A model generated the notes under the pieces. That model did no database searches. It was given only the letters and a program-made list of their open reading frames with translations, and was not told the origin of the DNA. A stretch of DNA of 64,000 bases from positions 1,860,001 to 1,924,000 of the forward strand of contig NC_089430.1 in assembly GCF_026210795.1 (NCBI RefSeq), given 5' to 3'. Below, piece by piece: positions 7,077-60,298 of the stretch (the stretch's first letter is position 1; every line of letters begins with the position of its first letter). The position numbers were made by a program, and so were the translations under genes. This DNA comes from Rhizophagus irregularis. Lineage: Eukaryota.

Positions 7077-7099
7077 GTTACACAATTTAAATTATTTAT

Positions 7100-11900: not shown

Positions 11901-12460
11901 TCCAAAAACGCAAAAGAATCACCACTTATAAAACTTGGAACATCAGTAAAATGATAGCACGAATTAAAGCCCAATCCATGCTTCCCAATTTTTGTATCAT
12001 CGCCTTGCTTTCCTCCAACGCGTATTTGCATAAGTGATTCAAAATCAGTTTCTTTAAATTTCGCATTATTAAATATCAAAATGGCTGGGCCTTGCCAAGC
12101 CTTCATTTCATTATAAAATAGAGAATCTGTAGGATGTGAACGGGCGTCAACTATCACGTGATATCGAGTAGCTCCAGCGTCATCGGCTATTTTTTTTTTT
12201 TTAGGTAAAATAAGTAACATATTTTTTTTTACAAAAGTTACAAAAGCGAAATAAAATTAATTTTTTTTAACTCCTTACCATTTTGAAGAAATTCTTTAAA
12301 TATACTCTCGAAAGGATAATCCTGGTAAAATATGGGGTTTAATAATGTTATTAAAAAGAATTATAATATATATTTTAAATCATAGATGAAAACCTACTTT
12401 TATGATATTACGTATGGACGAAATAAGTGTCTCATTTTGACCGTAAGATTGAAATGACAT
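8967..12460 (-). CDS. Sacsin-like (Hsp90/GHKL-type ATPase) N-terminal domain plus C-terminal BTB/POZ domain protein, copy A, ~1071 aa
   Basis: Exons 12460-12398, 12321-12279, 12186-10816 and 10705-8967 total 3216 nt in frame. Motifs: EFLQNADDAGA, KIGKHGLGFNSCYHFTDVPSFISG, GTLFRLPLR, LPVHLNG. BTB region: DIIFIVDEEEIKANRYMLAASSEFF...LLRYLYG...LLKLANSYELAHLKE. Confidence 0.92.
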
Positions 12461-18520: not shown

Positions 18521-19919
18521 TACGTTAAGCAAAAAGGAAAGAAGAAAAAAAGGGTTTGGGCGACAACTTCGTTTCGTCGCACAAGTATTTATGCAACGTT
18601 TAAATTTCTTATTGGTTCCTTATTATATAGATCCTTATCACATGATGATCATCACTATTTTCCGCAGCACATCAACATGAATTATTTTATTCTATTTTAG
18701 CGTACCTGCTGATTTATCACCTAGGTTATTTCGGTATCGTTCACGGGTCCCTGACCGATATCAGTAATAAAAAAGGGAGACAGAAAAATCATATGACTAC
18801 TTACCAAAATCCGCAGCATCCAGTATTATTTAAAAAAAATTATAAATAGGGTTACAGTACTGTAAAATCTCCCGGTAGTACTAAGAAAATCATCAATTCT
18901 TGAGACGACTTTTGGGTTCCGTTGCAAGTGTAGTATGTGAAACTCTTCATTCAAATTTTAAATTTGTATGTTCGCTATTTATATTTAGAAAGACAGACAT
19001 CATAAAAATTTAGTTTGATTTCAAATTATTATAATTATAACGGTAAAAAACATAAAAGATTAAACGTTTAAGGCGTAAGCATTATTACGAGTCTGACGCT
19101 AAGTCAAATAAGCTGTAAGTAAGTATAGAAGCATAACAAGTATATCAGTCTTTTTCCGAAACTTATTCTACTGTCAAAAAAAGTAACAAGAAAATTGAAA
19201 CTCATAAAACCCGGTATAAATTGGGTTGGAATTTACTGTATAATTAGGAGTTTTTGAGTTCTGTCCAGTTTTTTTAAAATTGAATCTAAAATAGCCCTGT
19301 TCATTTCCAGTCGGTTGCATTTTTCGGTCGGATTTTGTTGTAAAAAAAATTATCCAATAAAAATTTTTTTATTTTCGATCGCAAATTGAACTGCTTTAGA
19401 TTGATTTTTTAAAAAAAATATAATAATTTTGTAAATATATTTAATATAATATTTTATTTCTTTATTTAATAATAATAAAAAAGTTGAAAGAAAAAGAAAA
19501 AAAATCAAAAAAAAAATTGGGGAAAGAAAAGGATGAAGAAAGAAATCGGTTTAAAAAAATAAAAATAACAATACGGTCTAAAAAAAAGATCGAAAAAAAA
19601 TAATATAAAAAAAAAATTGGTCTTAAAAGACCGAAACAATAGGATTATTTATTAAAAAATTTTCAGTTTGGGAAAAAAAATTAAATGTAAATGGGAAAAG
19701 AATGAGAAAAAATAAATTTTTCGGTTTGAAAAAAACTGAAAGAAGAAAAGGGAGAAAAATTTTTTTCGGTTCGAAATCAAAAAAAGCATTAACTGAAATT
19801 GGATTGGTTGATTGGAATGCACATGGATCGAATAGTTTTTCAATCAAATTTCCTTAATTATGATATCGGAATCAAGAATATCACACTTTTCAATGTTACA
19901 CAATTTAAATTATTTATAC

Positions 19920-20446
19920 ACCCTTAACAATATATAATCCAGGTGCCGTTTATAAAAGTAGACCTTTAAGTGATATGATTTAACCTGCAATGTCTTTAAC
20001 GAGTTTAATAAGTCAATCTTTTAATTTAGAAACTGGTAAACATTTATTATATTAAGAATTACATTACATTTTTATATCAATGTTTAACTTTTTTTTTTTT
20101 TACTTGAATAATTAGACCCATTTTATTATTATCAGACACCGTCTACTGGTAATTAGTCAATTATATATTTGTTATTGTTTGAGATATCATTCATTATATT
20201 AATAACCATTATTCTTTTAAAGTTAAAAGAAAATTCGATGAGATTAATGACGATAATGGTATGATATCAAATAAACTTTATTGTAAAGATTATATGTCAA
20301 AAGAAATTGAATTAGATATTAATAATCATAATAATAGTAAGTTTTTTTTTATAAATATTTATATTGTATTATTATATTTTGACCTAATTATTATTAATGT
20401 AGAACATAATTCCAGAGAATTTGAATTTGATATTAATACTCTTTAA
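19920..20446 (+). pseudogene. Orphan 3' tail of a TKL-type kinase gene, copy B
   Basis: Same micro-exons as 7100-7626 (DYMSKEIELDINNHNN, HNSREFEFDINTL*) with the same in-frame TAA. Confidence 0.6.
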
Positions 20447-21388
20447 TTTTTCAAAGTGGTTTTTTTATTTTTATTTTTATTTTATTATAATAATAGATTA
20501 TTTTTAGTGCTTTTAGGATTTTCTATTATATATGTTGATTTTTGACGAAGATTTTATCGCTATTTAAATAAAATTCTATATACAAAAAAAGAAAATTATG
20601 AAAAATAATTGAATTTATAAATTTTTAAACCACAAGAATCGTTTTATTTTAATAAAATGTCCTAAATCGATTTTTCTTATGTCATAAAACTCAAATCTAA
20701 ATATTGCGTAATTTTCAATAATTTTATTAATTTGTTTTCTCATAAATTTATATATAGTAATGTTGTTAAATATGTACAGTCAACTCACCTTACATGAATT
20801 TGGCGTCTGGACTTATTATGCCTTCGTTCATTTTTCAGAAAATTTGGTAATGCTATCAAGTATCAACGAAGGATTTGGTATAGAATATTTCGTTATACAA
20901 TTTTTTCGGTATATAGTAAAAACAACGTGAACCGACCGAACCGCCCTTAAATAAATTATAAAATATTTTTCTAATTTAAACTTGTTTCAAAATTTATAAA
21001 AATTTTATTAGAAACTTAAATCTTTTCTTTACTGAAAAAAAAATAAAAGTTAATTATAAAAAGTTCATTTTATATGATCACACTTTCGTTCGTTAAACTG
21101 GTGTAACAGCGCTTGATTAACATCACTATAACAAAATTTTTTTTATTTATATGTTAAATATCAAAATTCGCTATAAGGTAAAGTTGACTATATAGTTGAG
21201 TTAAAATATTAATCATTCTAAAAGAAGATAATTTACATATAGTAGTAAATTCTTTGACAAATGACAAACTAAATTTCTCTTTTATTTTTGTATAAAATAA
21301 AAAAGCAAACTATAATAATATATAAAATGATCGTAATAAATATCGTATAAATTCGTTTATAATTCCCTATAATATTATTACTTCTTCT

Positions 21389-24300
21389 TTACAAATTATT
21401 ATTAGCGATGATATAAAGATCACAGAATTCTTTGAGCTGGTTGGCTCCCGAATTTTCAGCAAATTGTTTCATATTTTCCACATTCGACCTGGTAATCGTT
21501 CGCGAGAGCCTCAATTCCATCACTTCTTTTAAATGGACTAACTCATAACTATTTGCTAATTTAGTTAGATCTTTATAAAGTGCAAATTTTGAATTATCAT
21601 CATCAATACCTAAACTTTTAATTGCGACATCGATGTCCTGACCATACAGGTATCGTAATAAGATTCGCATCGAGTTAGGTCGAATGTCATTAATAGTGAT
21701 CTCAATCGGACCCGGATCTGCCGAATAAAATTCTTGTCGAAAAAATCCAGAGCTTGCCACAAGCATATATCGACTTGCTTTAATTTCTTCTTCATTTACA
21801 ATAAAAATGATGTCATTTAAGGAGGATTCATGATCAAATAAAAGATCAAATACGGCTTTTCCAATAATAATGGACTGATTGTGTAGACGGACGTTTATTT
21901 TATAATCTGGTCGTTTTACTTCCTTGACACCTGCACTTTTGAGCATGTTTGGATATTTTTGAAGACTCAAACAAATATATCTATCCTCATCCTTTTCACT
22001 ATTCAAAATCAAATCTTTTACAGAGACCCAGTTGTCGTCATCAAATGGGTCTTGATCTTTATTGAAATTAAGGAATAATCTTTCATGTTCATAAATTTGT
22101 TCTGACAAGTCAATATCATTTGTCTTGCATTCACCTTCGAGCCATTTATAAACTTCATAGACGTTGTTTTTAAAAACGCCAGCCCAATCGCTTTTCCATT
22201 CATCATCAACCCGTATGTGTGTATACAAGAAACGAAGATGTTCGATTACAGTAGTTGCTTCCGGTTTACCAAGTGATGGATACTTTTGAAGTACGTGTTT
22301 AGGCGGTACAACATCTTCTGCAATCAAAGACATTTGACTCCACGCAACTTCTTTATATTTGGAAAGAACTATGTGATCGAAACAATCTAAAGTATTAGTA
22401 CGAACATAATTCAAATTATAAGGTTTACCCAGATCTTTAGAAATTGGAACAAATCTAAATCTTTCCATTCCTTCTTCAAATTTAAGAGTGTCAATATTCT
22501 TATAGAAATAGTCGATTAAGGCAAAACCTCGATAACGTATGTCGGATGGAGGATTCACCTTTTTTTCCAACGTTTCGATATATTTAGCGCAACCAATGAA
22601 TGTTTTTTGATTAACCTTATTTTTAAATCCAATATTTGACAATGCATCTGAATATTTTATATCATTATGAAGATACATGCCCATGTTTTCACCAAAAATG
22701 ACCTTGTAAACACTATTTCGAATATCATACAGTTGATCAATTTTCTTTAATTTCTTATTATATGTGGGAAAACAAGGCTTATCTTTTAAATCTCTAACAA
22801 CATTACTATAATGAAGTATGTCGTTTAGAAAACGAACATATTGATAATCATATTCACTAGGGAATTCAACGTCTTCGAAAGTATACGAATAAACGTCTCG
22901 TTTTTGGACACCAAGTTTGATAAGACAATTTCGAACATTATCCCCAGAAGCATTCAAATAAATTTTAGAATCCTTTTTTGTTCGATAATGTTGAAAATTA
23001 CTTGGCAAGATGTACCCGCATGAAATTGGTTTCAAATCTGCTGGTAGTATCGAATCTGAGAGTGTCGGCCAAATAGGCAATGAGCGGAGGAGTAATTTTA
23101 GATCCGGATTAGATGTTATGTCTACGCAAATTTAAAAAAAAAATAAAAGAATAAGCAATTCAACCATTTGTTTAGTTGCAAAGATGATAATATTTGTACA
23201 CTTAAAACTCTAAGTAGCTACCTAATCCATCCAAATTATTTCGTAATAAGCCTTGAAATCCTAAAGTCTGTCCACGTGGTAAGAACTTGAAGAGAACGTC
23301 TGCGCGGTCATTCTCGTCAGGTAAGCCTTCATTAATCAACTGGAAAATATCATCATTTTTTAATATAAGTTGGAGTACTCTAAATCCATATTCGACTACG
23401 TATCTTGGATAATTTCCAGCGGCGGACGGAAACGGCCAGTACTTTGAGATGGGATGATCTTTTAGATCTATTTCTTTATTTTTATGTAATTTGATAATTT
23501 CTTCGAGTAGTTTGCAATAAAGTTCCGGTAAGAAATCAAGCAAAATATACCTATTCCAACCAAGTTTCTGATGATCTAAATCCGGCAGATCATCTTTTTC
23601 GATTAGTAATTTTCCACGATCTGAGCCCTGAGCCCAAGTACCGTTAAGATGAACTGGCAAATATATTGCATCAGGTAATGAGAAAAAAGAATACATTCTA
23701 CCCTTAAAGCAGTTATCCTCTGAGCTTTTAAGTATTGTAGCGATACCCCCTAATACGCGTAAACGATATTTTCTCGCATATTCTTTTAGTTTTGAATCCT
23801 CAGGATTTTGTTGAGCACCATTAGTAATAATCCAATGCTCTTCCTGTTTATTTTCTGAATTATCAGCTAATTCGATCTTTATCTGAAAAGTATTAATTAC
23901 ACCATTGTTAACATACTTTCTTTTATTTTTTGTATCTTCATTCAAATCTGTTATAATCGCTCTCCAAAGAGAAGTTATTTGGAATGGAGCTGTATCTTCA
24001 TTTATGAAAGACGTTTCAATTATTTCAATATTTCGAAGGAATATAAATTGAGAGGATGCAATTGATTTAATATTGGTGAGTAATTCGAGAACCTTGTCGG
24101 TAGTAAAAATGCTGTCAGAGATATCACTTGATTCTTTCCTGAGTGGTAATCGAAAGAGAGTCCCTTCAAAAGTAGATCGAAAATCTATTCCTTCAATGCC
24201 TTCAAAGGGAACTAATTGGTCCTTATTAGAGAACCCATCAATGCCATTATTGGGAATAAGACCCCTAATACCACGTTGGGACAAATATTTCTCTTGAGGA

Positions 24301-24841
24301 TCCAAAAACGCAAAAGAATCACCACTTATAAAACTTGGAACATCAGTAAAATGATAACACGAATTAAAGCCTATTCCATGTTTCCCGATTTTTGTATCAT
24401 CACCTTGTTTTCCCCCAACGCGTATCTGCATAAGCGATTCAAAATCAGTTTCTTTAAATTTCGCATTATTAAATATCAAAATGGCTGGGCCTTGCCAAGC
24501 CTTCATTTCATCATAAAATAGAGAGTCTGTAGGGTGTGAACGAGCGTCAACTATAACATGATATCGAGTAGCTCCAGCATCATCAGCTATTTTTTTTTTT
24601 AAAAAAAAAGGATATTTCAATTAAAATTTTAACGAAAGTGAAATAAATTGAATTTTAACTCCCTACCATTTTGAAGAAATTCTTTAAATATACTTTCGAA
24701 AGGATAATCCTGGTAAAATATTAATTTAATGAAACCATTAAAAAAAAATGCACTTTTAAAGCATAAATGAAAATCTACCTTTATGATATTACGAATGGAC
24801 GAAATAAGTGTTTCGTTTTGACCGTAAGATTGAAATGACAT
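21389..24841 (-). CDS. Sacsin-like ATPase plus BTB/POZ domain protein, copy B
   Basis: Same four-exon structure as copy A (MSFQSYGQNETLISSIRNIIK | DYPFESIFKEFLQN | ADDAGATRY...). ORFs 23202-24620 and 21389-23080 are open. Confidence 0.92.
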
Positions 24842-26848
24842 TTTATATCGTTATCTTTTTTTTCGACTTTTTTTTTTGAATTATTTTTTTTTTAAAATAA
24901 TAGATTAGAATTTGATACCATTAAAGATTATTTCTTTTAAATCTTTTCTTTATGCGTTTTTTTTGTGACAAGATTTTATTCTAAAAAAAGTTATATATCG
25001 GTTTTCATATCTACTTATACAGAAATAAATCTGATACATTGCTAATAAATAAGACTATTAAAGACAATGATCTTCCGGAAAAAGTTTTGATGACGATTTA
25101 TTTGAAATACTTCATATATTAGAAGTTAGATTGAAAACGATTATCAAGAATGTTTCTATAGATGAACTACTTCCTGGTTTAAAATTAGTTAAACAAAAAA
25201 TGATCGGCATTTGATGCTTTTGTCTTGTCGTTTTGCGTTAAGATCGGCTTAAACTTGTTAAAAATCGATTTTACCTATTTTAGTTTCGATTTTTTTTTTC
25301 TATTCTATTTTCAACCAATCAAATAACATCTCAAAATTTCTTATGCTAATAATTAAATTACCAACTGCGAGTGATCTCTAATCAAAATATGTTCAGATAA
25401 TTTTTTTTTTTTCAGATATCCTGATAGAGCGTTCTTTATCCGAATAAAATTACCAGGTCTATTATTATCTGGATAAAAAAAAGCCTTTTTGTTTTGGTTT
25501 TTTTTTTAAAAAAAATAAAAAAAAATGTAAAATCATGATTAAATATCAAAAAATAAATAAAATTTCAATAGAACATCATATCTGATATAATTTAATGAAA
25601 TTGAAATAGCAATAGAAAATGATTTCAATAAATTATAGATATTAATAAATGATGTTGATATACAGTATAAGAAATTGATGAATACATTAATAGATAATTT
25701 TAAAAATTACGTAAACATATAAAGATTGAATTAATGGTTTAGATTTAGGATTTTTTTTTTAATTCCAGCTGGCATTATAAATTTGACCTAAATTACTATT
25801 GATGAACTATTTGAAACCTAGTACATTAATATAAAATTGTTAACAACTTAGACATGTTTTATATTCATTATATTCAAAATATTATTATAATATTTGTAAA
25901 AAATCATTAACTTTGAATGTTATTTCAAATTGTGTAAGCACAACAATAATAGCCATTTATAATGTAATTACTTTGTTTTTTCTTATTTAAAATATAATAA
26001 TAATAGTAGTATAGTCTTTATCAAATTCATGTGGAAATGCGATAATACTATTGATGGATTGTTATCGACGCCTAAATATGGTTTAGTCCTTTCCGTTATC
26101 TTTTATTATTTGTCCGGCACGTGATGATGTGTATGCATAAGCATATTCATAATTTTATGTTATTCTTATGCTTATACTTTATAGTTTATACTTTAGGATC
26201 AGCAACCCAGCTTTCCATCGTAATAAAATTTTTTATTAAATATCCAATGTCAATTACTGCATTAGCCTTTTAAAGTAGTAAATATTTTTTTTCATAGAAT
26301 TTTTTTTAGTAAGCATATTTATTGTCATTTTCTTTTTCAAAAAAAAAAAAAAAAAAATCTTAATGACTATCAAATTATTATCATGTTAATCATATTATCG
26401 TCATAAAAAATTTATCGTAAATTGTGTAATTGTAAATTACTTTATACGACTAGATATCAGCAAAAAAATTGTTTTGGGCGATTTTTTTTTTTCATAAATA
26501 TATATATTATTTTTATCAAAAAAAAAACCTTCATTATAATGATGATTAGAATTTTTAGATTCAGTATATTGATTTTTTTTAATAAAATTCTGATTTCAGA
26601 TCTGCAATACGAAAGAAAATTTTTAAAATATAATTGATACTAATTTTAATTTATTCAGATTTATCATCAAATAAAATTCTCTTAATTTTAATAAATGAAC
26701 ACTTTCCTTACACAGTATTTTTTTAATGTCAAAATAAATTGTGTTTTCATTATAAATTTGAAAATAAAAGAAAAAACTTTGGATTTATTGGATTTTTAGA
26801 AATTAGATAAGTTTATTAAGCCACAACATTTCCGTTCGTTTCTCACAA

Positions 26849-26984
26849 CATATCGGCTGATCAGAAAAGCCTCCCATAATTTTATATGCTAAATGACAAT
26901 AAATAACCCATCAGTTTATATATAATGAACCCATCAACTGAGCTTAAATATTAATTGGCTTGATTTTTCCAATCAGCCGATATG
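26849..26984. mobile_element. 136-bp MITE with CATATCGGCTGAT terminal inverted repeats
   Basis: Termini CATATCGGCTGAT / ATCAGCCGATATG. Absent from copy A (empty site CTCACAATAAAATTG at ~14326). TSD unclear, 2 bp or less. Confidence 0.85.
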
Positions 26985-28495
26985 ATAAGTTTGTTTATTT
27001 TTAATATTTTTTACCAAAAACCCATTATTATACCTTTTATAAAATAATAAAATGAGCCTTTTAAGTTGTTTAAAAAATTATATTTTAGAAGAAAAAAATT
27101 TTTTTTATTAAAATTTATTATAACAATTGATAATAAAATTTATGTACTGTATTTTTAATGATAGAGACGTAATAAAAAATCACGTAGTTTGATTGGATAT
27201 ATGTCATGAGATTGCAGATCATTTGTGTGTGGCGGGTGTGGCGGTTATTTTTAATGAACGACGCATCACGCATCAGATACAGTAAATCTGAAAAGCCCCA
27301 ATAATATGAAACATCAATTTCAAAGAGGTACTTAAACGTTAATTTCATGTGAGGAGAGGAAACTTGAATAACAATCTTTCAAGTAAATCTCTTGGAAATT
27401 TAGTTAATCCCTAATGATAACTTAAGGAGAGGATTTTTTACTTTAAAAACATTTCATCTTTTTTTGGATTTTTTTTATAGGAATTGGCTTTTGACTCTTG
27501 AGTGAGTATTAATCAGGGTTGTGGAGATTTTATTTATTTATTTATTTTTTCATTTTAACAACTAACATTTAATACTAATACTATTTTGGAAGTTTCTAGA
27601 TGATATCAGTTTTTTTTTAGATTTTTGAAAACATTATTTTGAATTTATGTTTAGGATAGATGAGAAATTGAAAGTACTTTTATAAAAAAAAATATACATT
27701 ATCTCATTAATTAACACCATACATTAATCTTATAAAAAATCTAATAAAAAATAAAGATAAAAATTGACCTGATACATGGATACGAATCTAAATAGTTTTT
27801 AACAACATAATAATAATAAACATAATTTATTTCACCATAAACATTTTTTTTTTAATGATACATTTTTTAAAGATAATAAATAATATTATTTATTAATTTG
27901 ATAATATTATTTTAATTTTTCATTTATTATTTTTTTTTTAAAAAAATATACAAATACAATATATTCAAAAAATATACTAAATGGTTGATCTAACTCCTCT
28001 ACTCACATACCCTCTCCAACTATTATCATCCACAATGGTTTTGATCTAGTATTGCAGAAATATTTTCAACCAGCAATTTTAATTAAATAGCACCAATTGA
28101 TAAATCCGCTTTTAAACCAGAATCAGATGATATGAACGTCTTGACTCTTGAATTAATGGCTGCAAACCCCTTACCAACCTAATTAATAAAATGTGAATTT
28201 AAATATAATAAAGTATTAATATTTTTAATAAATTTTCCAAATAAAATACTGTATAAACGTGGTAAAATGCACTCTAAAGCATCATAAATTCTTTTCTAGT
28301 CATCACACACGTCATGTGAAAAAATTCAATTAAATTTGATCAGTTACACATGAACCTTTGCCTTTTACGCCGATCACAATCAAAAAAGAAAAAACAAACT
28401 TTTGTTTCACCAAAGAAATAACGAAGTATTGAATTAATAGACTTATGACATTGAAATAGGGTAAACGTTGAATTAGAAGCATTAGATTCATAGTT

Positions 28496-47300: not shown

Positions 47301-50300
47301 TGCCAGTCCATGTTCATCATATGTGTTACTATTGGTATGCATTGCGATTAGAGTAGAGCTTTCCAGCTCGTTTGCAAAAATTCTGTCAATAATAGAATAC
47401 AGATGATGTAATTCAATTGACGTTCTTGATTTGAAGAAATCGATTTCATGATAAAATTCTCTGTAAACTAGATTTTATAATAAAATTATATCAAAATTAT
47501 TAATTGGTTTAAAACATGAAAAATATTTTATTTTTCGCTATTTAATACTATTATTTAGAATAATTCAATTTTAAATAATGCCAGCCGGCAGTAAACCAGT
47601 TTAATTCAATATTTCTTTTTTTCATATAAATTTAAACGGTTATTTTGGCTATTTTGAATACAGTAACCTTGCAATGTCCTAATGGCTTACTAGTTGCACC
47701 ACACATAAGAAATTTCATTTGATACATGTTTTTTTCTTCCAAACGAAAGATTTTATCTGTTATAGTTTGTAAGTTCATAACAAAAGTCATGATTTTAACA
47801 ATCTTTGCAAGAAAATAGATAATAGTCTACATGAATTTCAGCTATTCTTCTTTAATCACAAGTATAATAAATGGAGTCTATAACTGAAATAACAAGAAAA
47901 AAAAGTCGTTAGTATGGCTGGTACCAGGTGGAAGAAAAATCAACCACCATAGCGTAAAAAAAAAGTCTCCAGAAAGGTGATGGTATCATACTCAAGTGGA
48001 CACCCTAGAACTTGCACAATAAAGATTTTTTTTTGTTTTTTTTTTATTTTTGTTAATTTTTTTTTCTTTTTTTCATTTCTTTTTCTTTATTTTTTCATTT
48101 TCATTTTTTTTCACCTTTTTTCTTTTTTTTTTATATTTTTTTTTTCTATTATTCTGTATTTTTTTTCATTTTCATTTTCATTTTCATTTTTTTTTTTTTT
48201 ACCTTTTTTTCTTTTTTATATATATTTTTTTCTTTTATTTTTTGTTACTTTTTTTTAACCCCTACTGTAATGGTCCTTTGGGATACCACTGACAATATGA
48301 CACCATGCATACAAGCCAGGTGCATAGGCTAACCCTCCTCCAGGAAAGCCAGTTTCTCATATATACTCCCTTTCAACTTTTTTTATCTGTAAGCCTGTAT
48401 CATTAAAACTATGCAAGCAGGGAGCGCATGCTTACCTTAATATTGGTCTACCATAAATCTTAATTTGTAAATACAATCCATACTGTATTACATTCTTTCA
48501 TCTTCAGTAGAAAATTCAAGATTATATTCTTTATTTTCAACCTTTGTAACATTGACCTTAAATGTTGAGTTTGAGTATTGTTTATTGTTATTTCATTACC
48601 AACCAAGAAAGAATTGTCACAAGTATTGCCTAAAATTAAAAAAATAAAAAAAATTTTATCTTGAATATATTTTTCCATAAAATAATAAAATGTATCTTTT
48701 TAATATTGAAAAAACAAAAGAAGACCTAAAGAACCCATCTGGTAAAAGATATTCTTGGTTTATTAGTTTCATCTGACAAGTTACTTATTGAAGAGAAAGT
48801 TCGTAAAAAGGAAAATTTCATATTGAATATATTTTTCCATAAAGTACGAGTTTAATTTCTCTAAGTTCGTGAGTTTGTGAGTTTGTTATATGAATATATT
48901 TATCTGAAGTTTTTGATAAAAAAATGAAAAATGAAGTATTGAGAAATTTGAGGGAGTTTGGGTATATTTATACTTTTTTAAAAAACCTTTTACACAGTAG
49001 ATGATATGTGGAACTTCGATGTACAAAATTTACAAGATCAAGATTTGTTTATATATTTTACTATATTGTTTCATAAAAAAAATAATGACTCATAAAATCT
49101 TGAATCTTGATAAAAAAATCTGATCTTGATAAAAAATATCTCAATTTTTTTTAAAAAAAATGTAAAAAGAAGTTTAATATTGAAAATCCTCATGAGTCAT
49201 TACTAATATTTATAGGGGTATATCGATCGTGAGTCACATTTATCACATCGATCGATTCCTAATTTTCTATGTATTAAATCTGGAAACTAGTAATATGAAT
49301 CCTTTTAACTTCATTGCGGAATCTTAAAATATTATATCATAAAATTATCATGTAAAAAAAAGGAAATAATCACAAATAATAAAAATTCAACACTAATTCA
49401 ACACGAAATACGCTTGATACTTTAAGAATATTAAGTATGAACTCTAAATACGGGTTCTTATTTATGACGTTTCAGTACTTATCAAATCTCCCTGTTAAGC
49501 TTTCTATGCTTTCCTTGTTAGAAAGATCTATAACCTCGCATGCTAAGAAAGCAACACTCTGTAGCGTATACGCTCTTGGCGCTCCTTATAAGGATGCCGC
49601 AGAAATAATTTTTTTTTTTAAAAAAAAAAGTGATTTTTTAATTTTATAGTACTTTTGTTTTTGTTACAATTTTTAAAAAATTAACAATTAGAGTTAAATA
49701 ATAATTTACATTTGAATTAATTTTCACAATTTCGCAATAAACTTCTACTCTCTTCTTCATTTTCACTTATCAACACTTTAAAATTTCGAAAATTATTTTC
49801 CTTTAACTTTTTAAACTCACTTAAAAACCTTATAAGTTTTCTTTCATAATGTCGTTCTATAATATGAACGGTAATAAAAAAAAATTGTTCAATAACCTTT
49901 GATTCAATTTTAATATCATGCTACGCTACTCCATCTATTTATTTTTACGGTTATTGATGCAGGAATTACTATCTCTGTTCCAATATTTTAAGTAAATTTT
50001 TCTTTCTCTGAATAATATTCTACATGTTTCGCTGTTTCTCAAGTATTTCTATAAATTCTTCGATAAAGAGCAATATAATCTAAAAGTTCATCTATGAAAA
50101 CTAAACATAATTTAATTTCATTATCAAATCAAAATTAAAGTGCAACATATAAATCTCACCCAAGTAATAACTTATCAAGGTTACCTTCAAATTTGAGAAT
50201 CGAAGAAGAATTTTCTTCAAAAGGTCACAAATCATTTTTAATTAAAAGGAAATATTACATTAATGCACTCGGATATCCTTAGCGACTATCAAATTTGATT

Positions 50301-50813: not shown

Positions 50814-51902
50814 ATGAACTCTCCACGAAGCACCCAAAAAATAACTGATAAAGTTGAACCAAAAAATGAATTTCTCGCACATGGAAATATTAAGGATTAC
50901 TATAATTCACGGTCCAATGAATGCAAGATATATGCCTTCTCAATGGACTATGCAGAAAAATTAAATTCCAATCCAACTTCTATAATCTGGGAACAACCTA
51001 CTCCGCATGGATTGGCCTCAGCAATCATCAATGCGTATACCCTTCATCAACACCTTCGATTCTCACCAGATGATGTTTGGTTAACAGTTGCACAGGGTGT
51101 CAGTAATCACATTTGGAGAAACGCCTACCGTTTTCGTCATTTGTTTGTTGACCATAAAGGTAAAAAAGAAATCTACCTGGACGCTCGTGATATTATAGAT
51201 CAAGTTGGTGGAAATTTTGTCGGTGATTGGCCACAAGCAATTACTCGACTTTCGGATACAGTTGATGAAAAAGTTAAAAAAGTTGCCTTAAAAGAAATTT
51301 TCGAATGTGATTTTTCTACTTCAACAAATACATCTATTATAGTCAGTCGAATTACCTTGTTAAATGCGATGAAAGAATTTTTTATCCTTAGATTGCGTGG
51401 TGGATGTGGTATTCCAAAAGTTACCCTTGATGGCACCTTAGAAGATTGGTTACACCTTCAAGAAAAAGTTGCAAATCTTCGTAATTTAGGATTGGAACTT
51501 GATTTCTGGCTCGATAGGTTGGAACCGGTCATTTCTCAATTCATTACCACTTATAAAGGAAACGTTGATGAAAACTTTTGGAATATGGTTGTTTTTCAAG
51601 CTCCTATTATTGGACCCAGTGGTTACAGCAGCGAAGAACTTGGTACACGTCCTCGTTGGGATGGATGGATAAGTGCATTATTTCCATACACTCAATTAGG
51701 ATGCTATCCTTCTGATATACCTTCTGGATTGGTTAATGTTCCATTCACATTGAGCATTAATAAAAATAACTTCCAATTAAGATTTGTTGGAGGGTTTCTA
51801 GGTTGTAGACAAGATAAGATTGATGAAGAATATGTTGTTTCGCCTGTTATTGGTTGGTATATTGATGATAAAAAACTTTCTCCAAGGGATTTAAGGGATT
51901 GA
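50814..51902 (+). CDS. DUF4419-family protein, intronless, 362 aa
   Basis: Recognised from the motifs AIINAYTLHQHLRFSPDDVWLTVAQG, CDFSTST, CGIPKVTLDGTLEDW, GWISALFPY and VVSPVIGW. Confidence 0.85.
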   Translation: MNSPRSTQKITDKVEPKNEFLAHGNIKDYYNSRSNECKIYAFSMDYAEKLNSNPTSIIWEQPTPHGLASAIINAYTLHQHLRFSPDDVWLTVAQGVSNHIWRNAYRFRHLFVDHKGKKEIYLDARDIIDQVGGNFVGDWPQAITRLSDTVDEKVKKVALKEIFECDFSTSTNTSIIVSRITLLNAMKEFFILRLRGGCGIPKVTLDGTLEDWLHLQEKVANLRNLGLELDFWLDRLEPVISQFITTYKGNVDENFWNMVVFQAPIIGPSGYSSEELGTRPRWDGWISALFPYTQLGCYPSDIPSGLVNVPFTLSINKNNFQLRFVGGFLGCRQDKIDEEYVVSPVIGWYIDDKKLSPRDLRD

Positions 51903-52171: not shown

Positions 52172-52550
52172 GAAGAGGGGTCACGACTCGTTTATCCGTA
52201 ACCCGTTTACCCTGTAAAAAAAGTCTATCCGTTTTTTATATTCCAACTTTTTTTCCGTAAAAGGCTCATATTTCCAGAATTAATAACCTTATATCACGGA
52301 ATTTTTTGAATTATTTTCATTTTTTTGTGAATGGAACCGTGAAAGGCACATTCTTACGGATTATTTACAAAAAAATAACGGATAAAATTTTTTATAGGGT
52401 TAATCGGATACAATCCGGGTATATTAGGGGAATACAGTAACAAATGGGTAAAAATGGCTGGCCGTGTTTGTATCCGTTTTTTATGTTGATACAAATATAC
52501 CCGAGTAAAGCCGGGTTATCTACCCGGGTATGCCCCGGGTAATTACTCTA
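52172..52550. mobile_element. hAT-like relic with 8-bp TSD, hosting a nested MITE
   Basis: Direct repeat ATCAAAAT at 52164-52171 and 52551-52558. Right end ...CCGGGTAATTACTCTA; subterminal ACCCG/CGGGT repeats; left TIR degenerate. Confidence 0.65.
52210..52399. mobile_element. MITE family B (CCCT[G/A]TAAAAAA termini), nested copy
   Basis: Termini CCCTGTAAAAAAAGTCTATCCG / CGGATAAAATTTTTTATAGGG. Related in inverted orientation to 57415-57604. Confidence 0.8.
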
Positions 52551-53067
52551 ATCAAAATTAAAGCTTTCCAGAATCAAAGGTTTATATAAATTACATTTAG
52601 GAACTTTACTAGAAAAATGGACCCTGAAACAATGAAACATGTATCATTAGTGATAGTCATATAATTTTTTAATTTTATTAACATTGACCAAAAAAAAATT
52701 AAATTTTTCGGTCAGAATTAAGTAATGTGTTGTCAGTCACTAATAATGAGCTTTAGCAACGCTTATTATATAATACTTTATTTTTTAAAGTTTAACAATG
52801 TCAAAGTCTTAATAAATTCAATAAATATCTAATACTCAGATATATAAACGGGTATAAATGGGTATTTCCCGTTATGGAGTTGTTATGATCCGGATCCAGA
52901 AATTCTGCACAGTCAGTTATTTAGCCAGAGAAGGTTAGTCTTGAGTGCAATTGTCACCGTGAGTCATAACTTGTAACTGCATTAATAACGTTAAATTCCG
53001 AATGATGCCGCAATTGAATTAATCAATATTTAAAGACAAAGCTTTCTTACATTTTTTTTCTTGAATA

Positions 53068-53273
53068 ATGGATTATATAAGTAAGAGTCACAGAGTCATT
53101 GATTTATCTGCTAGAATTTATTCTATTAATTAACTTCTAACCTTTTTTTATTTATTTAAGCTGATGCGTGCTCGTTTATGAATTGTGGCAAAGAAACGTC
53201 ATGCATTGTCTGCGGGAGTAAGCGAGGCGGTGGGGCATGCCGTGAACATTGTACATGCGGTAATTGTAAGTAA
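53068..53273 (+). CDS. Cys-rich micro-peptide 1, 41 aa: MDYITDACSFMNCGKETSCIVCGSKRGGGACREHCTCGNCK
   Basis: Exons 53068-53080 and 53161-53273 total 126 nt. GTAAGA...TTTAAG intron. Homologous to three downstream copies. Confidence 0.8.
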
Positions 53274-53700
53274 AATCTCTTTTTTATTTTCGTAAATCAT
53301 AATGACTCAATGACTCTGTGAAAAAAGAAAATGAAAAGTTATATTTCTATCATTTATATCCATATTTACAATAAACAAATTTTTTATTTTCAATTTATAA
53401 ATTTTTATAAAACGTAATACGTTATTATAAACTGAAAATTTTATACTTGATAAAAAATATTTCCATTTGCAAAGATGTATATAAAATTGATGAGAGGATT
53501 ATTTTGAGCTAAACTAAAAATAATTTCCTGATGTCAAAATGGTCTTTATACTATTTGTTTTATTACCTCCTATGTTACTTAGAATTTCGCCATGGTCAGA
53601 ATGAAAGTTTAGGTAAAATACTTATGATTTTTAGTTTAATTTATAAATAAGTAACTTGCCTTATTGTATCGTAGTTATTTTAAAAGTCAAGATACTTTAA

Positions 53701-54092
53701 CCATTTATCGCCGTTTTCGAATTGGTGTGATCGTCGATCAATTTCTATAATTGACTCAAAATAAAATCAATATCATTTGATCTGTGTAATGCTAAGCCAC
53801 CATCGTATAATATTCACCTTTTATTTTTGTTATAGCTTATAAACCGATTCCTAAAGACCTGATTGATTCCTATAGATTCCAAAGTTTCTTAATAACTCCA
53901 ACCAAATAAAAGATAATACTTTTTCATTTTATTTTTATAATTTCTAACTATTTTTTCGTTTCTATCTATTTTTTTCATTAGTGTAAATAAGCTGTATTTG
54001 TATTTCTTGTTTTTGGTTGCTTTCGGTATTCGCAGTTTTATAAATAAAATATATCACCTGATCACAGTAATTCGAAAATGGCGATAAAAAGT
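53701..54092. mobile_element. piggyBac-like MITE flanked by TTAA
   Basis: TTAA|CCATTTATCGCCGTTTTCGAATTGGTGTGATC ... GATCACAGTAATTCGAAAATGGCGATAAAAAGT|TTAA. Confidence 0.7.
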
Positions 54093-54194
54093 TTAAATGA
54101 AACATCACATATTGTAAATATTACTTGGCTAGACCATAAAGAAAAATTCAAGAAAATTCTAATGGCGCTATAGTATTGATATTAATATTTCATA

Positions 54195-54610
54195 TAACAT
54201 CTGGAATAGGTTGCTTGCGACATTTTAGGATATGATGATGGAAAGTTTGTCAGGGATTTGCCGCAAGCAATTACTCGATTTTCAGATTCTATCAACAAAC
54301 GAATTAAAAAAGTAAATGTTCGAATGTTTGATTTATCTACTTTAACAAATGCATCTATTATTCTATTACTACCAGTCGAATTATCTTGTTAGATACGATG
54401 AAAGAATATTTTACGTGGTGGCTAATCGCTGTGGTAAATTGATAGTATCTTGGAAGATTGATTACACCTTTAAGAAAAGTTGTAAAAAAAAATTTCATGT
54501 TTAGATAGGCTAGAACCGATCATTGCTCAATTCTTATCACTTCTTAATTAATCAAATTTATTCTTATACGAAGTTTCTTTTTTTTTTCCCTTACGAGTTT
54601 ACAATTATAT
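54195..54610 (+). pseudogene. Decayed paralogue of the DUF4419 gene
   Basis: GCAAGCAATTACTCGATTTTCAGAT, GAAGATTGATTACACCTTTAAGAAAAGTTG and GATAGGCTAGAACCGATCATTGCTCAATTC match 51230-51550. The 3' flank matches 51910-51955. Multiple deletions and stops. Confidence 0.85.
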
Positions 54611-55313
54611 GTTTAAATTAGAAAATTCGTAAACATACAGTATTTATAAGATAACATTTTTCCGCTCAATTTTTTTTTTTACGCGTACGCGAGAACTTAC
54701 TGTGTTTGTATAATAGTTTGTAATAAAGTTAGAAAATAGAAATTGTTATTTTGCTGACAAAGTTAAAACTTAGCAATGGAAAAAATTGTTTTTTCCTCCT
54801 TATTATTAAATAAACGTTTTTATTAAATACAAATGGATAATAAAAACTTAGTAACAATCACTTTATATGATCATGTTCTGTTATTAACATTAACTATACT
54901 TAAAACTACAAATAATATATAATCTTCTACGATATCATATAACTACTAAGTATCTTTAAAGATTGAAGATCATAATTAATTTATATTTGTCAATGTCGTT
55001 AGAATTATTTGTATAATCCTTTTCTCCTTTCTATTTAAACTTTTAAACTTACTATATTTTCATATATTGGTAAATCTCTTACATCCATAAATTCCAAATT
55101 TCTATCTTATCGTCATATCGTGATCGAAAAAAAATTTTTAATATTGACATTAACAAATATTTATAATGCGTGATGCAGGGGCACATTGACAAATAAATTG
55201 TCACAGTGAGTCATAAATAGTAATACGTTAAATTCCGAAGATTTGTTACATTGAGTTCAGGTTATTTTTTTTTATTTAAAGGCAAGCTTTTTCCTACACT
55301 TTTTTAAAAAATC

Positions 55314-55496
55314 ATGTCTTATAAAATAAGTAAGGTCACAGAGTCATTAGTCTTCTACTAACATGTATTCCGTTATTAACTAACTTTTAACTTTTTTTAT
55401 TTAAGCTGGTGTGTGCTTGGTTTTTGATTGTGAACTTGATATAAAATGCAGTAAATGTAATGCAATAGACATTGTGGCTGTGGTCAATGTAAGTAA
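55314..55496 (+). pseudogene. Cys-rich micro-peptide 2, frameshifted: MSYKITGVCLVFDCELDIKCSKC/CNRHCGCGQCK
   Basis: Exons 55314-55329 and 55406-55496 total 107 nt, 4 nt shorter than copies 3 and 4. TGT AA TGC replaces TGT AAG ATG TGC. Confidence 0.75.
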
Positions 55497-56669
55497 AATT
55501 TTTTTTATTCTCATAAATAATGACTCAATGACTCTGTGACTCTGTGACAAAAATAAGCAAATTGTAAATTTTTATAAGTAAGTTATGCAATTTCTTTAAT
55601 TATATCAAATATTATACAATAAACATAATATATTCATCATGTTCAACCAATTTACAAAATTACGAGTTCAATATATATGATGTATTATTGTAGACTGAAA
55701 ACGGTATGTTTTATGTTCTCTCTTCGTCATAAATATCTTTGTAGAGTTATTTAGAAAAAAATTAAATGAACATATAAAATTTATTCTTTAAACTGTCATT
55801 CATCATATTGGCAAACCACCCTCTAATAATAGAAAAAAAGAAGGTAACCTATAACTAATGAACGAGATCATAGCTATAAATCTAAAATCAGGTGGTAACG
55901 AAAAATATTAACGGGTAAAGTAGAAGACAGTTCCTATAAAATAAAACCCACGTATTTATCTTTCACTCCGGAAGGAATGCTACACGTAAATACTGTAAAG
56001 TGTAGAAAGATGGGCGGCCAAAAGATTTGCATAAGCAAAAAATATACAAATACCTCGTGATCCAAGCGTTATCAACGTCCGGGTAAAGAAATTGCTAAAA
56101 AGGAATTGTGAATTTGTTTTCTAATCACATGACGTATCACCGATGCATTACTTTTGATCGTTGACTTAAAAAAACTAATTTTTAAAGATTAAAAATATGC
56201 CTTCATAGAAAAGTTAAATAATTAAAATAACCTAAAATCATTATAGTATAAACTTAATTTATTGATAATTTCATTAATTGAAAATTTTTTATTTATGCAT
56301 ATTTGCATATAAAATCAGTTAATTTTTGCATTAATATTGTATGAATTTTCTAAATATTATATTTATATGAAGTAATACACTATATTTTAGTAATAATTAA
56401 AAATTGTAAATATATAAGTAAATTTTTCAATCGCCGAATTTATATTAGATTAATCTAAGCTAAATCGGGTCGGTCGAGATAATTAATAAAGATCGGCATA
56501 ATTAACAGATAAATTGATACCGGGTCGACTCGCATCTAAAGGTACACTGACAAAATATTTGTCACATTGAGTCATAAGTAGTAATTGAATTGATACGTTA
56601 AATTCCGAAGGATCAACAGATTTTTTCTTTTATTTAAGACAAACTTTTGCCTCGCTTTTTTTAATAAAA

Positions 56670-56854
56670 ATGTCTTATGAAAGAAGTAAGGGTCACAGAG
56701 TCATTAGTCTTCTACTAAAATGTATTCCGTTAACTAACTTTTAACTTTTTTTATTTAAGCTGGTATATGCTCGCGTTTAGAATGTACTTTTAGTGTATCA
56801 TGCACTAATTGTAGGTCGTGCAATAGTCATTGTACCTGTGGTCTATGTAAGTGA
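56670..56854 (+). CDS. Cys-rich micro-peptide 3, 36 aa: MSYERTGICSRLECTFSVSCTNCRSCNSHCTCGLCK
   Basis: Exons 56670-56685 and 56760-56854 total 111 nt. GTAAGG...CTAAC...TTTAAG intron; TGA stop. Confidence 0.82.
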
Positions 56855-57414
56855 AATTTTTTTATTCTCATAAATAATGACTCAATGACTCTGACAAAAA
56901 TAAACATAATACAAATTCTATCGAGTAAGTTATAATACTCTTATAAATCCTATATTTTATATATTTCTATCATTATAAACACTATACCTATATATATAAT
57001 AAACAAAAATTTTTTTACATGTATATTCATCACATTCTGATATTTTCAATAAATTTATAAAATTATAAAGTTCAAAACACGTTATGCAAAACTATTATGC
57101 ATTATTAGAAAGATTTTACTCTCTGGTAAAATGTATTTCAAATCCCTACTTTGCAAGATAAGGATCGTTACAGCAGAGAACATAATACATATGTCTAGAG
57201 TTATTTAGAAAAAATCAAATGAAACTATTCTTTTAAACTGCCATTCACCATATTGGCAAACCCACCCTCTAATAACAGAAAAAAGGAAACCTATAACTAA
57301 TGAACGGGATCATAGCTATAAATCTAAAATAGGGTGGTAACGAAAAATATTAACGGGCAAAGTAGAAGACAGTCTCTATAAAATAAAATCCCGTATTTAT
57401 CTTCACTCTGGAAG

Positions 57415-57604
57415 CCCTATAAAAAATTTTTATCCGAATATTTCCATTATTTTTCCGTGTCTTCCGTAAAAAATCCGTGAAAATGAGGATATCCGTGTTA
57501 GCGAGATGAAAATTTCCATGATTTAAGGCTATAAATTCCATGAAAATGATACATTCACGGAAAAAACATGGAAAGATAAAACACGGATCAGATTTTTTAC
57601 AGGG
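57415..57604. mobile_element. MITE family B, second copy
   Basis: Termini CCCTATAAAAAATTTTTATCCG / CGGATCAGATTTTTTACAGGG. Empty site TCACTCCGGAAGGAATG in the preceding tandem unit (~55963). Confidence 0.88.
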
Positions 57605-58331
57605 TAAGGAGTGTTACATGTAAATACTGTAAGGTGTAGAATGATGGCGGCCAAAAGATTTCATCAGCAAAAAAATATACAAATACCTCGTGATCCAAGC
57701 GTTATCAACGTCTGGGGTAAAGAAATTGCTAAAAATAGAATAATCACTCATTTTAAGATTAAAAATATGCCTTCATAACAAAGTTAAATAATTAAAATAA
57801 CCTAAAATCATTATAGTATAAACTTAATTTATTGCTAATTTCACTAATTGAAAATTTTTTATTTATGCAAATAAAACCAGTTAATTTTGCATTAATATTT
57901 TATGAATTTTCTAAATATTATGTTTATTTATATTGTCTTTCAGAAGTAATACACTATTAATCTTTTATATTTTAGTAATAATTAAAAATTTCCAATATAA
58001 AAGTATAATCTTTATCAGTTTTATATATTCCAAATAAAATTTTGGGAAATTAGAATTTATATTCGATTAATCCAAGCTAAATCGGGCCGGTTGGGAGAAA
58101 TTAATTAATAAAGATCGGCATAATTTTTTGATTTACAATATAGAAATTGATACCGGGTCGACTCGGGCAAGAAGAGCATCTATAACCAGAATAAACCAGA
58201 TGCGGGTGCACTGACAAAATAATTGTCACATTGAGTCATAAGTAGGAATTGAATTGATACGCTAAATTCCGAAGGATTGACCCATTTTTTTTTATTTAAG
58301 ATAAACTTTTGCTTGCTTTTTTTTAATAAAA

Positions 58332-58517
58332 ATGTCTTATAAAATAAGTAAGGGTCATAGAGTCATTAGTCTTCTACTAAAATGTATTCTGTTAAACTAA
58401 CTTTTAACTTTTTTTATTTAAGCTGATGCGTGCTTGTATTTTGGATGTGACCATAATGTAAAATGCAGTAATTGTAAGATGTGCAATAAACATTGTTCCT
58501 GTGGTTTATGTAAGTAA
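58332..58517 (+). CDS. Cys-rich micro-peptide 4, 36 aa: MSYKITDACLYFGCDHNVKCSNCKMCNKHCSCGLCK
   Basis: Exons 58332-58347 and 58423-58517 total 111 nt. GTAAGG...CTAAC...TTTAAG intron; TAA stop. Confidence 0.82.
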
Positions 58518-60298
58518 AATTTTTTTATTCTCATAAATAATGACTCAATGACTCTGACAAAAATAAACATAATACAAATTCTGTCGAGTAAGTTATAATA
58601 CTCTTATAAATCCTATATTTTATATTTCTATAAACACTATACCCATATATACAATAAACATAAATTTTTTTACTATATATTCATCACGTTCTGGTATTTT
58701 CAATAAATTTATAAAATTATAAAGTTCAAAACATGTAATGCAAGCTATTATGCATTATTAGAAAAATGTAAAATGTACATTAATTTGTATACCCCAATAC
58801 CCTTCTTTGCCTATGAGGTTATTAAAAGTTGGTCTAGGGCTTATAGAAATACCCATTGGCATTGTTAAGGATAACAACAGTAGAGCAGCTGTTTCATACA
58901 AATAGCCCATATAGTGTTCTGTAAGACCCAGGACTACATATAGATTACGTTATGAAGTTTATGGATCGTCCTCTGGTGCAGTGACGCTTGGAATATCACT
59001 ACATACATTGCGATACCCACTTATCTGCGTATTCCTTAAAGCTACTTTGTACACCAATTTAAATTCCAAAGCCTTTATTTCTTCAAATATATAGGACTCT
59101 TATTTTTCAGTCAAGAACTTTCGAATGTATGCCATCCTTAATGATCCTTTGAGAATGCGTAAAAGATACATTATTAACTCTAGAGTTTACTGAATAATTC
59201 TTTATGAAATACAATCGATAATTCAAGGTTATCTAGTTTAACACCGTGTTCACATATTAGTTAAAAATGCTTGCCTCTATATTACGCTCTTATTTTCTTA
59301 CAATGTTATTCATTTTTTTTACACATTTTTTGGGTTTAAAAGGAAAAATTTGTTTAATTCCTATATTTATCGCTTCAACTTTTTTTTTGATAATGGCGTC
59401 ATAATTTCCATACTTTCTTTATTAAGCATGTTATCCTTAGAACTAAAGGCATAATTTACGGTTTATGATGATTAACAATAAAATTGTAATATACATACGT
59501 GCATGTTCATGTGATTTTCAAATTTACCAGTAAGTGTTTTTGCGTTTCCAGATATTTTAATTTCTGGACAAAAATGTCCGGAAAATATCCAGGTAATATA
59601 CGGAATGAATTATATATCGAAAATGAATGTCCGGAAAACATCACGCACCACAATAAAATTTGTGTAACATCATCCTATTCGAAGAAAATTTAAGCGAAAG
59701 TTTCATACTTTTATTTATGTAAACCTTAAGAAAGACCTTACGAAAAACCTTATGTATGTAGTTTATATTCTTGCTTAATTTATAAATATTGATTAAACTT
59801 ATTTTTTTTTTTACTTTAGAAGTCGGAATGGTAATTAGAAAAATAAAAGTCGTACATATGCTAAAGTAATTACTAAAACCGAAAGTGGCCCACCCTTGTT
59901 TAAAAAAAAAGGCTAAATATAGAAACATTGTCGCTACATTTTTTTTTTGTAGTCTAAATTGATTTACTATTATCTTCCTCTTTCAGACATGTCACGTGAT
60001 TCTGCATACGTCCTGATCGTTTCAGTTATTAGGGAGTAGGGGCTACGGTAAAAGAAAGGTTTCATGTATTTATTTACTTGAATATAATGTATTTTGTTAA
60101 TTATGAAATTTCTTTTTTAAGAAATATTTAACAAGACGGGAGTTACAACAAATTAATAAGATTTTCTGAGAAATTTACTATTAAAAGGTACAATAGGTAC
60201 AATCAAAAAGAAATAAATAAGCCTTTTTTTTCTTTTTTTTCTTTAAAAAAAAACAAAAAAAAAAATTTGAACTTAGTCTCTCAATTACTTTCATAAAA

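What the first reader, a model, noticed from the sequence alone, without database searches (positions are those of the whole stretch)
55406..58517. Coding exons of the peptide array are more divergent than their introns and flanks
Seen: the introns (GTAAGGGTCA[C/T]AGAGTCATTAGTCTTCTACTAAAATGTATTC...) and 3' flanks of copies 3 and 4 are almost identical. The inter-Cys residues are nearly all different: GICSRLECTFSVSCTNCRSCNSH vs DACLYFGCDHNVKCSNCKMCNKH vs GVCLVFDCELDIKCSKC--CNRH. Inference: diversifying selection on a fixed Cys scaffold, as in toxin, effector or recognition peptide families, which fits a conflict or recognition role better than simple metal chelation. One copy is already frameshifted, consistent with birth-and-death turnover.
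Basis: partly seen in the sequence, partly recalled or inferred. Interest (0 to 1): 0.8.

Follow-up and report, generated by a model that had tools for sequence, protein, structure and literature searches.

The report
Fast-evolving cysteine peptides in mycorrhizal fungus
A root-symbiotic fungus carries four tandem mini-genes (one broken) for cysteine-rich peptides that lack a secretion signal, and in the recent copies their variable residues change several times faster than the surrounding DNA, likely because they are small zinc-held binders adapting to a changing partner, not simple metal sponges or secreted toxins.

Summary
The window is most likely Rhizophagus irregularis. It holds four two-exon genes for 35-40 aa peptides; copy 1 (53068-53273) lies outside the finding, and copy 2 has a 4-nt deletion. 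Copies 3 and 4 differ at 26/95 exon-2 bases, against 2/74 in the intron, 10/240 downstream and 63/958 in the wider non-coding flanks. Silent sites stay low (0/8 Cys codons), and site models favour positive selection in 6 of 6 settings (p ≤ 1.6e-4). Flank-only gene conversion is therefore not enough to explain it. The toxin/effector reading is not supported. There is no signal peptide, and a metagenome homologue keeps only 7 Cys plus an invariant His. That eight-ligand spacing recurs in some phage and bacterial proteins and suggests a two-zinc mini-domain (inferred). No known family or solved fold matches. Best reading: cytosolic metal-stabilised mini-proteins with diversifying surface loops. 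Expression, metal binding, partner and strain variation are untested.

The parts
53068..53080 (+). copy 1 exon 1 (ATG, 4 codons + 1 nt)
53081..53160 (+). copy 1 phase-1 GT-AG intron with branch-like CTAAC
   Evidence: splicing inferred
54213..54539 (+). degenerate remnant of the DUF4419 gene (intact copy 50814-51902) between copies 1 and 2
   Evidence: tblastn 40%, E 1.5e-14
55314..55329 (+). copy 2 exon 1
55330..55405 (+). copy 2 intron
55406..55496 (+). copy 2 exon 2, frameshifted by a 4-nt deletion near 55459 (likely pseudogene)
56670..56685 (+). copy 3 exon 1
56686..56759 (+). copy 3 intron
56760..56854 (+). copy 3 exon 2: 30 codons + TGA; C-x4-C-x5-C-x2-C-x2-C-x2-H-C-x-C-x2-C
57415..57604 (.). 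190-bp MITE-like insertion in the spacer before copy 4, absent from the matching spacer before copy 3
58332..58347 (+). copy 4 exon 1
58348..58422 (+). copy 4 intron
58423..58517 (+). copy 4 exon 2: 30 codons + TAA
56548..56575 (.). upstream element of copy 3: TGACA-N-TGTCA palindrome followed by TGAGTCA; counterparts at 55187-55214 and 58212-58239; copy 1 keeps the TGAGTCA half (52961-52967)
56698..56704 (-). intronic ATGACTC site of copy 3 (5' arm of an inverted repeat); counterparts at 53093-53099, 55341-55347, 58360-58366
56877..56891 (+). two tandem ATGACTC sites 3' of the stop of copy 3 (3' arm); counterparts at 53302-53316, 55520-55534, 58540-58554

Best explanation
This is a tandem birth-and-death array of four two-exon genes for 35-40 aa peptides with no signal peptide, whose invariant Cys7His core likely binds two zinc ions in the cytosol and whose variable residues are under positive selection, likely to bind a fast-changing partner. 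Shown: gene anatomy, invariant ligand spacing, excess amino-acid change, one dead copy, and four conserved ATGACTC sites per gene. Inferred: expression and splicing, metal identity and number, cytosolic location, co-induction through an AP-1/Gcn4-like bZIP factor (motif identity recalled), and the partner (a viral, endobacterial, competitor or non-self protein). Unequal crossing-over and occasional conversion would supply new copies, and selection would then retune the surface.
For: Selection: M1a vs M2a p = 1.6e-4 to 1.2e-8 in 6 of 6 settings, with 36% of sites at omega about 0 and 64% at omega 12-149. Silent differences fall in 8 of 82 same-residue codon pairs, against 0.25-0.30 simulated under a relaxed-loop model (P ≤ 0.006 in 3 of 3 settings). 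Cys codons differ 0 of 8 in each pair among copies 2-4. Scaffold: 7 Cys + His are invariant in all 5 intact-frame sequences aligned, and the eighth Cys is Arg in both L006 copies. No signal peptide. The same spacing occurs in phage amidoligase-like proteins (L025, L033, L048; Pfam Amidoligase_2 tested on L025), at the C-terminus of L024/L042 and as short ORFs in L167, L036, L063: 7 clean of 37 viral matches, against 1 of 34 and 1 of 22 for two permuted spacings. In the amidoligase repeat next to it the His position is Cys. Copy 1 scores weakly against the RanBP2 zinc finger (E 2.3e-4, below cut-off). All 10 non-significant PDB Foldseek rows are zinc fingers or proteins with zinc sites (PHD and nsp10 zinc recalled). 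16 of 23 ATGACTC sites in the window are in the array (4.7 expected).
Against: No expression, metal-binding or partner data; no reads were obtained. The selection tests rest on 4 sequences and 30 codons, and 7 of 16 changed codons carry several substitutions; that and recombination can inflate such tests. Pairwise dN/dS for copies 3 vs 4 (2.4-4.0) is not significant at kappa 1 or 2 (p 0.19, 0.07). One-ratio omega exceeds 1 significantly in only 4 of 6 settings. The L006 pair shows no excess: 4 of 8 changed codons are silent. The phage matches were picked by the pattern, fall into about 3-4 families, and may be convergent; the all-Cys variant gave only 1 clean match of 416 in a truncated scan. 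No significant fold match. Only one homologous locus was found.
Confidence: 0.45

Rival explanations
1. Metallothionein-like metal or redox buffers: small cytosolic Cys-rich peptides amplified in tandem and stress-induced, with divergence tuning metal preference or merely relaxed.
For: Size, 8 Cys in 35-40 aa, CxC and CxxC motifs, no signal peptide, tandem copies and AP-1-like sites. AM fungi have metallothioneins (GmarMT1, GintMT1; passages of PMC8908265).
Against: No Pfam metallothionein family matches. Each exon 2 has 1-2 aromatic and 3-4 aliphatic residues. Relaxed constraint predicts the neutral rate, but change is about 5-fold above it. No sequence comparison with GintMT1 was made.
Confidence: 0.25
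2. Unconventionally secreted, disulfide-stapled antimicrobial, toxin-like or plant-directed peptides.
For: The window copies have 8 Cys and net charge +2 in exon 2. Exons faster than introns is the venom-peptide pattern (passages of PMC2651877). Fungal effectors can lack signal peptides (passages of PMC10252856).
Against: No signal or pro-peptide. 7 Cys in L006 and an invariant His. No knottin or defensin among the sequence or fold hits.
Confidence: 0.15
3. The contrast comes from gene conversion or recent unequal crossing-over that homogenised flanks or imported exon tracts from older paralogues, without positive selection.
For: Exon-2 informative sites split 5:4:3 among the three groupings, whereas downstream sites are 4 of 4 for one grouping. 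The L006 copies are identical over 50 intron bases and the first 20 codons, then differ at 10 bases. The intron is more conserved than the spacers.
Against: Older exons should carry old silent changes, but third positions differ at 4/30, not distinguishable from spacers (p=0.14), and Cys codons at 0/8. Conflicting sites are interleaved, not in tracts.
Confidence: 0.1
4. RiPP-type precursors with a 5-residue leader and a variable Cys-rich core, or iron-sulfur peptides.
For: Short conserved exon 1 and variable exon 2; a CxxCxxCxxxC run gives weak ferredoxin hits (E ≥ 0.29).
Against: The two flanking genes scanned are DUF4419 and a kinase; exon 1 itself varies; copy 1 breaks the ferredoxin spacing with a 6-residue insertion.
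Confidence: 0.05

Closest known systems
Fungal metallothioneins (GintMT1/RiMT of R. irregularis, GmarMT1; Neurospora-type Cu-MT, recalled)
   Same: Tiny, Cys-rich, no signal peptide, CxC/CxxC motifs; a C-terminal C-x-C-x2-C run resembles the Neurospora type (recalled)
   Different: No Pfam MT match; aromatic and aliphatic residues between the Cys; invariant His; change above the neutral rate; GintMT1 and GmarMT1 are about twice as long (recalled, not fetched)
Hypervariable disulfide peptide families (scorpion toxins, PMC2651877; conotoxins, defensins, NCR peptides, recalled)
   Same: Fixed Cys scaffold, fast inter-Cys residues, conserved introns, paralogue turnover
   Different: Those are secreted through a signal peptide and disulfide-bonded; here there is none, and the core is Cys7His
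Small two-zinc fingers (AN1, B-box; patterns recalled) and RanBP2/NZF finger (PF00641)
   Same: Order of ligands C..C, CxxC, CxxH, then xC; copy 1 scores E 2.3e-4 on PF00641; weak Foldseek rows include AN1 and RanBP2 fingers
   Different: Loops are much shorter, His and Cys are adjacent, PF00641 cut-off not reached, no significant fold match; these are stand-alone hypervariable peptides
Uncurated C-x4-C-x5-C-x2-C-x2-C-x2-H-C-x-C module in phage amidoligase-like proteins and short bacterial/archaeal ORFs (L025, L033, L048, L024, L042, L036, L063, L167)
   Same: Identical spacing of 7 Cys + His; L167 is a 33-aa stand-alone ORF of the same build
   Different: Little similarity beyond the ligands (28-35% identity to copy 4, mostly the ligands); homology or convergence unresolved; no function known

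Membership tests
Metallothioneins | Low molecular weight and cysteine-rich (passages of PMC5666878) | tested here: met
   8 Cys in 35-40 aa
Metallothioneins | Match to a curated metallothionein profile | tested here: not met
   No such Pfam hit for copies 1, 3, 4 or the 14 rows of A4
Metallothioneins | Few or no aromatic and bulky hydrophobic residues (recalled) | tested here: not met
   1-2 aromatic and 3-4 aliphatic residues per exon 2
Metallothioneins | Metal-thiolate cluster binding and metal induction | not testable with these tools
   Needs bench work and expression data
Secreted disulfide-rich toxins, defensins, effectors | N-terminal signal peptide of 18-30 aa (passages of PMC10252856) | tested here: not met
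   4-5 codons precede the Cys domain; upstream frames are closed or lack an ATG
Secreted disulfide-rich toxins, defensins, effectors | Even, fully paired cysteine set | tested here: inconclusive
   8 Cys in the window, 7 in both L006 copies, which may be degenerate
Secreted disulfide-rich toxins, defensins, effectors | Positive selection on inter-Cys residues | tested here: met
   (small sample)
Secreted disulfide-rich toxins, defensins, effectors | Knottin or defensin fold | tested here: inconclusive
   No match, but 31-residue models search poorly
RanBP2/NZF zinc finger (PF00641) | Score above the gathering threshold, four-Cys motif | tested here: not met
   Copy 1: 20.8 bits against 27; copies 3 and 4 no hit
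AN1 / B-box two-zinc fingers | Eight ligands with family spacing, or a fold match | tested here: not met
   No Pfam hit; AN1 row E 9.3; VIA none at Z ≥ 2
Diversity-generating retroelement-like hypermutation | Adenine-specific change in the variable region | tested here: not met
   17 of 25 differences involve A; A-containing His, Lys and Asn codons are invariant
2[4Fe-4S] ferredoxins | CxxCxxCxxxCP motifs with significant similarity | tested here: not met
   One run, no Pro, broken in copy 1; best PDB E 0.29

The most novel reading that the evidence does not exclude
AM fungi carry an overlooked family of intracellular zinc-scaffold micro-binders, built on a module also seen in phage proteins, that diversify like venom or immune peptides without being secreted. 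They would be a variable cytoplasmic recognition or defence repertoire, switched by a shared bZIP site cluster or by an RNA stem that brackets the coding exon.
Probability: 0.3. Interest if true: 0.82.

Novelty: new variant of a known kind. Interest (0 to 1): 0.58.

Why it matters
Positively selected Cys-scaffold peptides are nearly always secreted and disulfide-bonded (recalled). An unsecreted Cys7His version in the model mycorrhizal fungus would point to an arms race inside its shared cytoplasm; a recent large-DNA-virus insertion is reported in this species (abstract of PMC10640383). The genes seem to be missed by annotation: no 17-79 aa relative passed the word filter in the protein collection, and the only hit is a chimeric gene model (P0001). 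At 35-40 aa the peptides can be synthesised, so metal binding and partners are directly testable.

Tried and rejected
No whole genome was held and no sequencing runs were obtained, so further copies, expression, splicing and strain variation remain open. Protein homologue searches: none at 17-79 aa; only P0001 among 29 longer candidates and among 1.84 billion representatives. P0001 fuses part of copy 1 exon 2 to the DUF4419 remnant and looks like a gene-prediction artefact. ESM Atlas gave no usable hit for copy 4; copy 1 did not complete. The copy-2 rows were mis-registered by one codon and were discarded; one search corrects them. The 14-row model reached pLDDT 82, pTM 0.39, but its rows were chosen by pattern, so this is not independent evidence of homology; no significant PDB, VIA or viral match. 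No PDB sequence match for A4, no NCBIfam match, no relevant PHROG, no Rfam match in 52500-59500. 14 of 15 metagenome motif hits were unrelated. Most of the 169 Cys-pattern matches were low-complexity frames. Expanding two phage families gave only 2 and 1 weak extra loci. A fungal-type C-terminal pattern found nothing in viral contigs. A second intron after the GTAAGT at the stop was rejected, as no acceptor is conserved. Transposon ends as the duplication unit were rejected, as homology runs far beyond the inverted repeat. RNAalifold gave no covariation support for the stem. Ten paper searches (listings only) showed no description of this family; subscription journals and supplements were not seen.

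Full report
Setting. The window is AT-rich (GC 21-33%) and has intron-split kinase, HSP70-like, F-box-like and BTB genes (names by eye except the kinase). The DUF4419 protein at 50814 falls in a cluster whose 6 named members of 9 are all Rhizophagus irregularis. The window is therefore most likely that arbuscular mycorrhizal fungus.

Anatomy. BLAST and a six-frame Cys scan find four copies in the window, with ATGs at 53068, 55314, 56670 and 58332. Each has a 13-16 nt exon 1, a 74-80 nt phase-1 GT-AG intron with a branch-like motif, and an exon 2 ending Cys-Lys-stop. Copies 3 and 4 would give 35-aa peptides and copy 1 a 40-aa peptide with an in-frame 6-codon insertion. Copy 2 has a 4-nt deletion. 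Upstream frames are closed or lack an ATG, so there is no signal peptide. Splicing and expression are inferred; no reads were available.

The observation. Copies 3 and 4 differ at 26/95 exon-2 bases, 2/74 intron bases, 10/240 downstream and 14/128 upstream. Because the intron is constrained, I also used four alignable non-coding blocks: 63/958 = 6.6%. Non-Cys codons differ at 25/66 = 38% (p=5e-12; p=1.5e-7 against the most divergent block). Change concentrates before the fifth Cys (13 of 15 residues), while the C-terminal third is conserved (2 of 7). For the older pair, copy 1 vs 4, exon and flanks are equally divergent.

Selection or conversion. If flanks had been homogenised around old exons, silent sites should be old too. 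They are not: Cys codons differ 0 of 8 in each pair among copies 2-4, and same-residue codons differ 0/13, 0/16 and 1/15. Third positions (4/30) do not differ from spacers (p=0.14). My codon-model fits on four copies (broken and inserted codons left missing) prefer M2a to M1a in 6 of 6 settings, p = 1.6e-4 to 1.2e-8. One-ratio omega is 1.9-5.5 and significant in 4 of 6. Simulation under a fixed-scaffold, neutral-loop model gives a silent fraction of 0.25-0.30 against 0.10 observed, P ≤ 0.006. Against this: the sample is 30 codons; pairwise dN/dS for copies 3 vs 4 is 2.4-4.0 but significant only at kappa 4; 7 of 16 changed codons carry several substitutions; informative sites in exon 2 conflict. 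Adenine-specific hypermutation is excluded.

A homologue. A scan with the 3' motif returned 15 metagenome loci, of which one (L006, GC 0.29, taxon unknown) is homologous. It holds two copies 298 bp apart, with the same intron, motifs and spacing but Arg in place of the eighth Cys. The invariant core is thus Cys7His: eight potential ligands, or two tetrahedral metal sites (inference). The one exon 1 visible in L006 is out of phase at the matching donor, so these copies may be degenerate. They are identical over 50 intron bases and 20 codons, then differ at 10 bases with 4 of 8 changed codons silent. This points to conversion or assembly collapse and shows no selection in that pair.

What the scaffold resembles. 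No Pfam, NCBIfam or PDB family passes its threshold. Copy 1 alone scores E 2.3e-4 on the RanBP2 finger. Some matches lie in plausible genes: Cys-rich repeats ahead of an amidoligase domain (L025, L033, L048), the C-terminus of L024 and L042, and short ORFs L167 (Shimazuella, 33 aa, purine-rich run upstream), L036 and L063. In viral contigs the true spacing gave 7 clean matches of 37, and two permuted spacings 1 of 34 and 1 of 22; an all-Cys variant gave 1 of 416. The 7 belong to about 3-4 families, so the enrichment is modest and homology is unproven. A model built on 14 such rows has pLDDT 82 and almost no regular secondary structure. It has no significant structural match, and its 10 weak PDB rows are all zinc fingers or zinc-site proteins.

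Conserved non-coding motif. Every copy has four ATGACTC sites: about 100 nt upstream, at the start of the intron, and twice after the stop. That is 16 of 23 in the window against 4.7 expected. The motif resembles AP-1/Gcn4 sites (recalled; PMC6531763 passages list other AP-1 variants, and PMC12638772 passages do not contain it). The intronic and 3' sites are inverted and form 9-15 bp perfect repeats. They pair in all 3 single folds (z -1.6 to -2.5), with one apparent compensatory change in L006 by eye. RNAalifold's covariation term is unfavourable. Transcription-factor sites and an RNA stem are both open.

Reading. The best-supported mechanism is a cytosolic metal-stabilised mini-domain whose exposed residues are being retuned by selection after tandem duplication, to bind a changing partner (0.45). 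Metallothionein-like buffering (0.25), unconventional secretion of a disulfide peptide (0.15), conversion alone (0.10) and RiPP or Fe-S roles (0.05) remain. It evolves like venom peptide families (PMC2651877, passages) but fails their membership on the signal peptide. It is built like a metallothionein or zinc finger but matches no curated family.

Papers seen: passages of PMC6305351 (RiMT transcript unchanged under Zn), PMC8908265, PMC2651877, PMC10252856, PMC6531763, PMC5666878 and PMC12638772; abstract and outline of PMC10640383; listings only for ten searches, none describing this family. Supplements were not read, and gene tables there could list these genes. Earlier scan notes held nothing on this genome or sequence.

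Verdict. A real, apparently undescribed micro-gene family under diversifying selection; a new variant of a known kind; interest 0.58.

Noticed in passing
window 53081-53316, 55330-55545, 56686-56895, 58348-58556; L006 1895-2130: An inverted repeat (9-15 bp perfect) brackets exon 2 in each complete copy, from just after the splice donor to the 3' flank; it could be a splicing-control stem or inverted transcription-factor sites.
   Followed up: partly
window 53266, 55489, 56847, 58510: The Cys-Lys-stop codons spell a perfect GTAAGT donor, making exon 2 a symmetric phase 1-1 exon (87 or 105 nt in the intact copies) with no stop; with the bracketing repeat this is the layout for exon skipping or back-splicing. 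No downstream acceptor is conserved.
   Followed up: partly
window 52210-52399 and 57415-57604: Two related 190-bp MITE-like elements with CCCT...AGGG ends; the first is flanked by TTA on both sides; 77% identical over 98 bases in inverted orientation.
   Followed up: partly
window 49085-49236: A second cluster of three TGA(C/G)TCA sites with no peptide gene found beside it.
   Followed up: no
window 6393-14783 and 19396-27307: A roughly 8-kb segmental duplication at about 85% identity carrying a large sacsin-like/BTB gene (names by eye).
   Followed up: no
P0001; window 53160-53216 and 54213-54540: A public 138-aa gene model fuses part of copy 1 exon 2 to the DUF4419 remnant, probably a prediction artefact that hides the real micro-gene.
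   Followed up: yes
L006 2170-2200: The 298-bp tandem unit joins at a TGA(C/T)AAAAA stretch present both in the upstream palindrome and after the 3' motif, suggesting duplication by recombination at this shared word.
   Followed up: no
L167 226-378; L036 589-720; L063 286-435; L025, L033, L048: An uncurated Cys7His module in short bacterial, phage and Asgard-archaeal ORFs and in repeats ahead of large-phage amidoligase domains; L167 weakly matches phrog_26961 (E 0.006).
   Followed up: partly
L004, L009, L013: Unrelated contigs hold 8-bp-period tandem arrays of the AATGACTC word.
   Followed up: no
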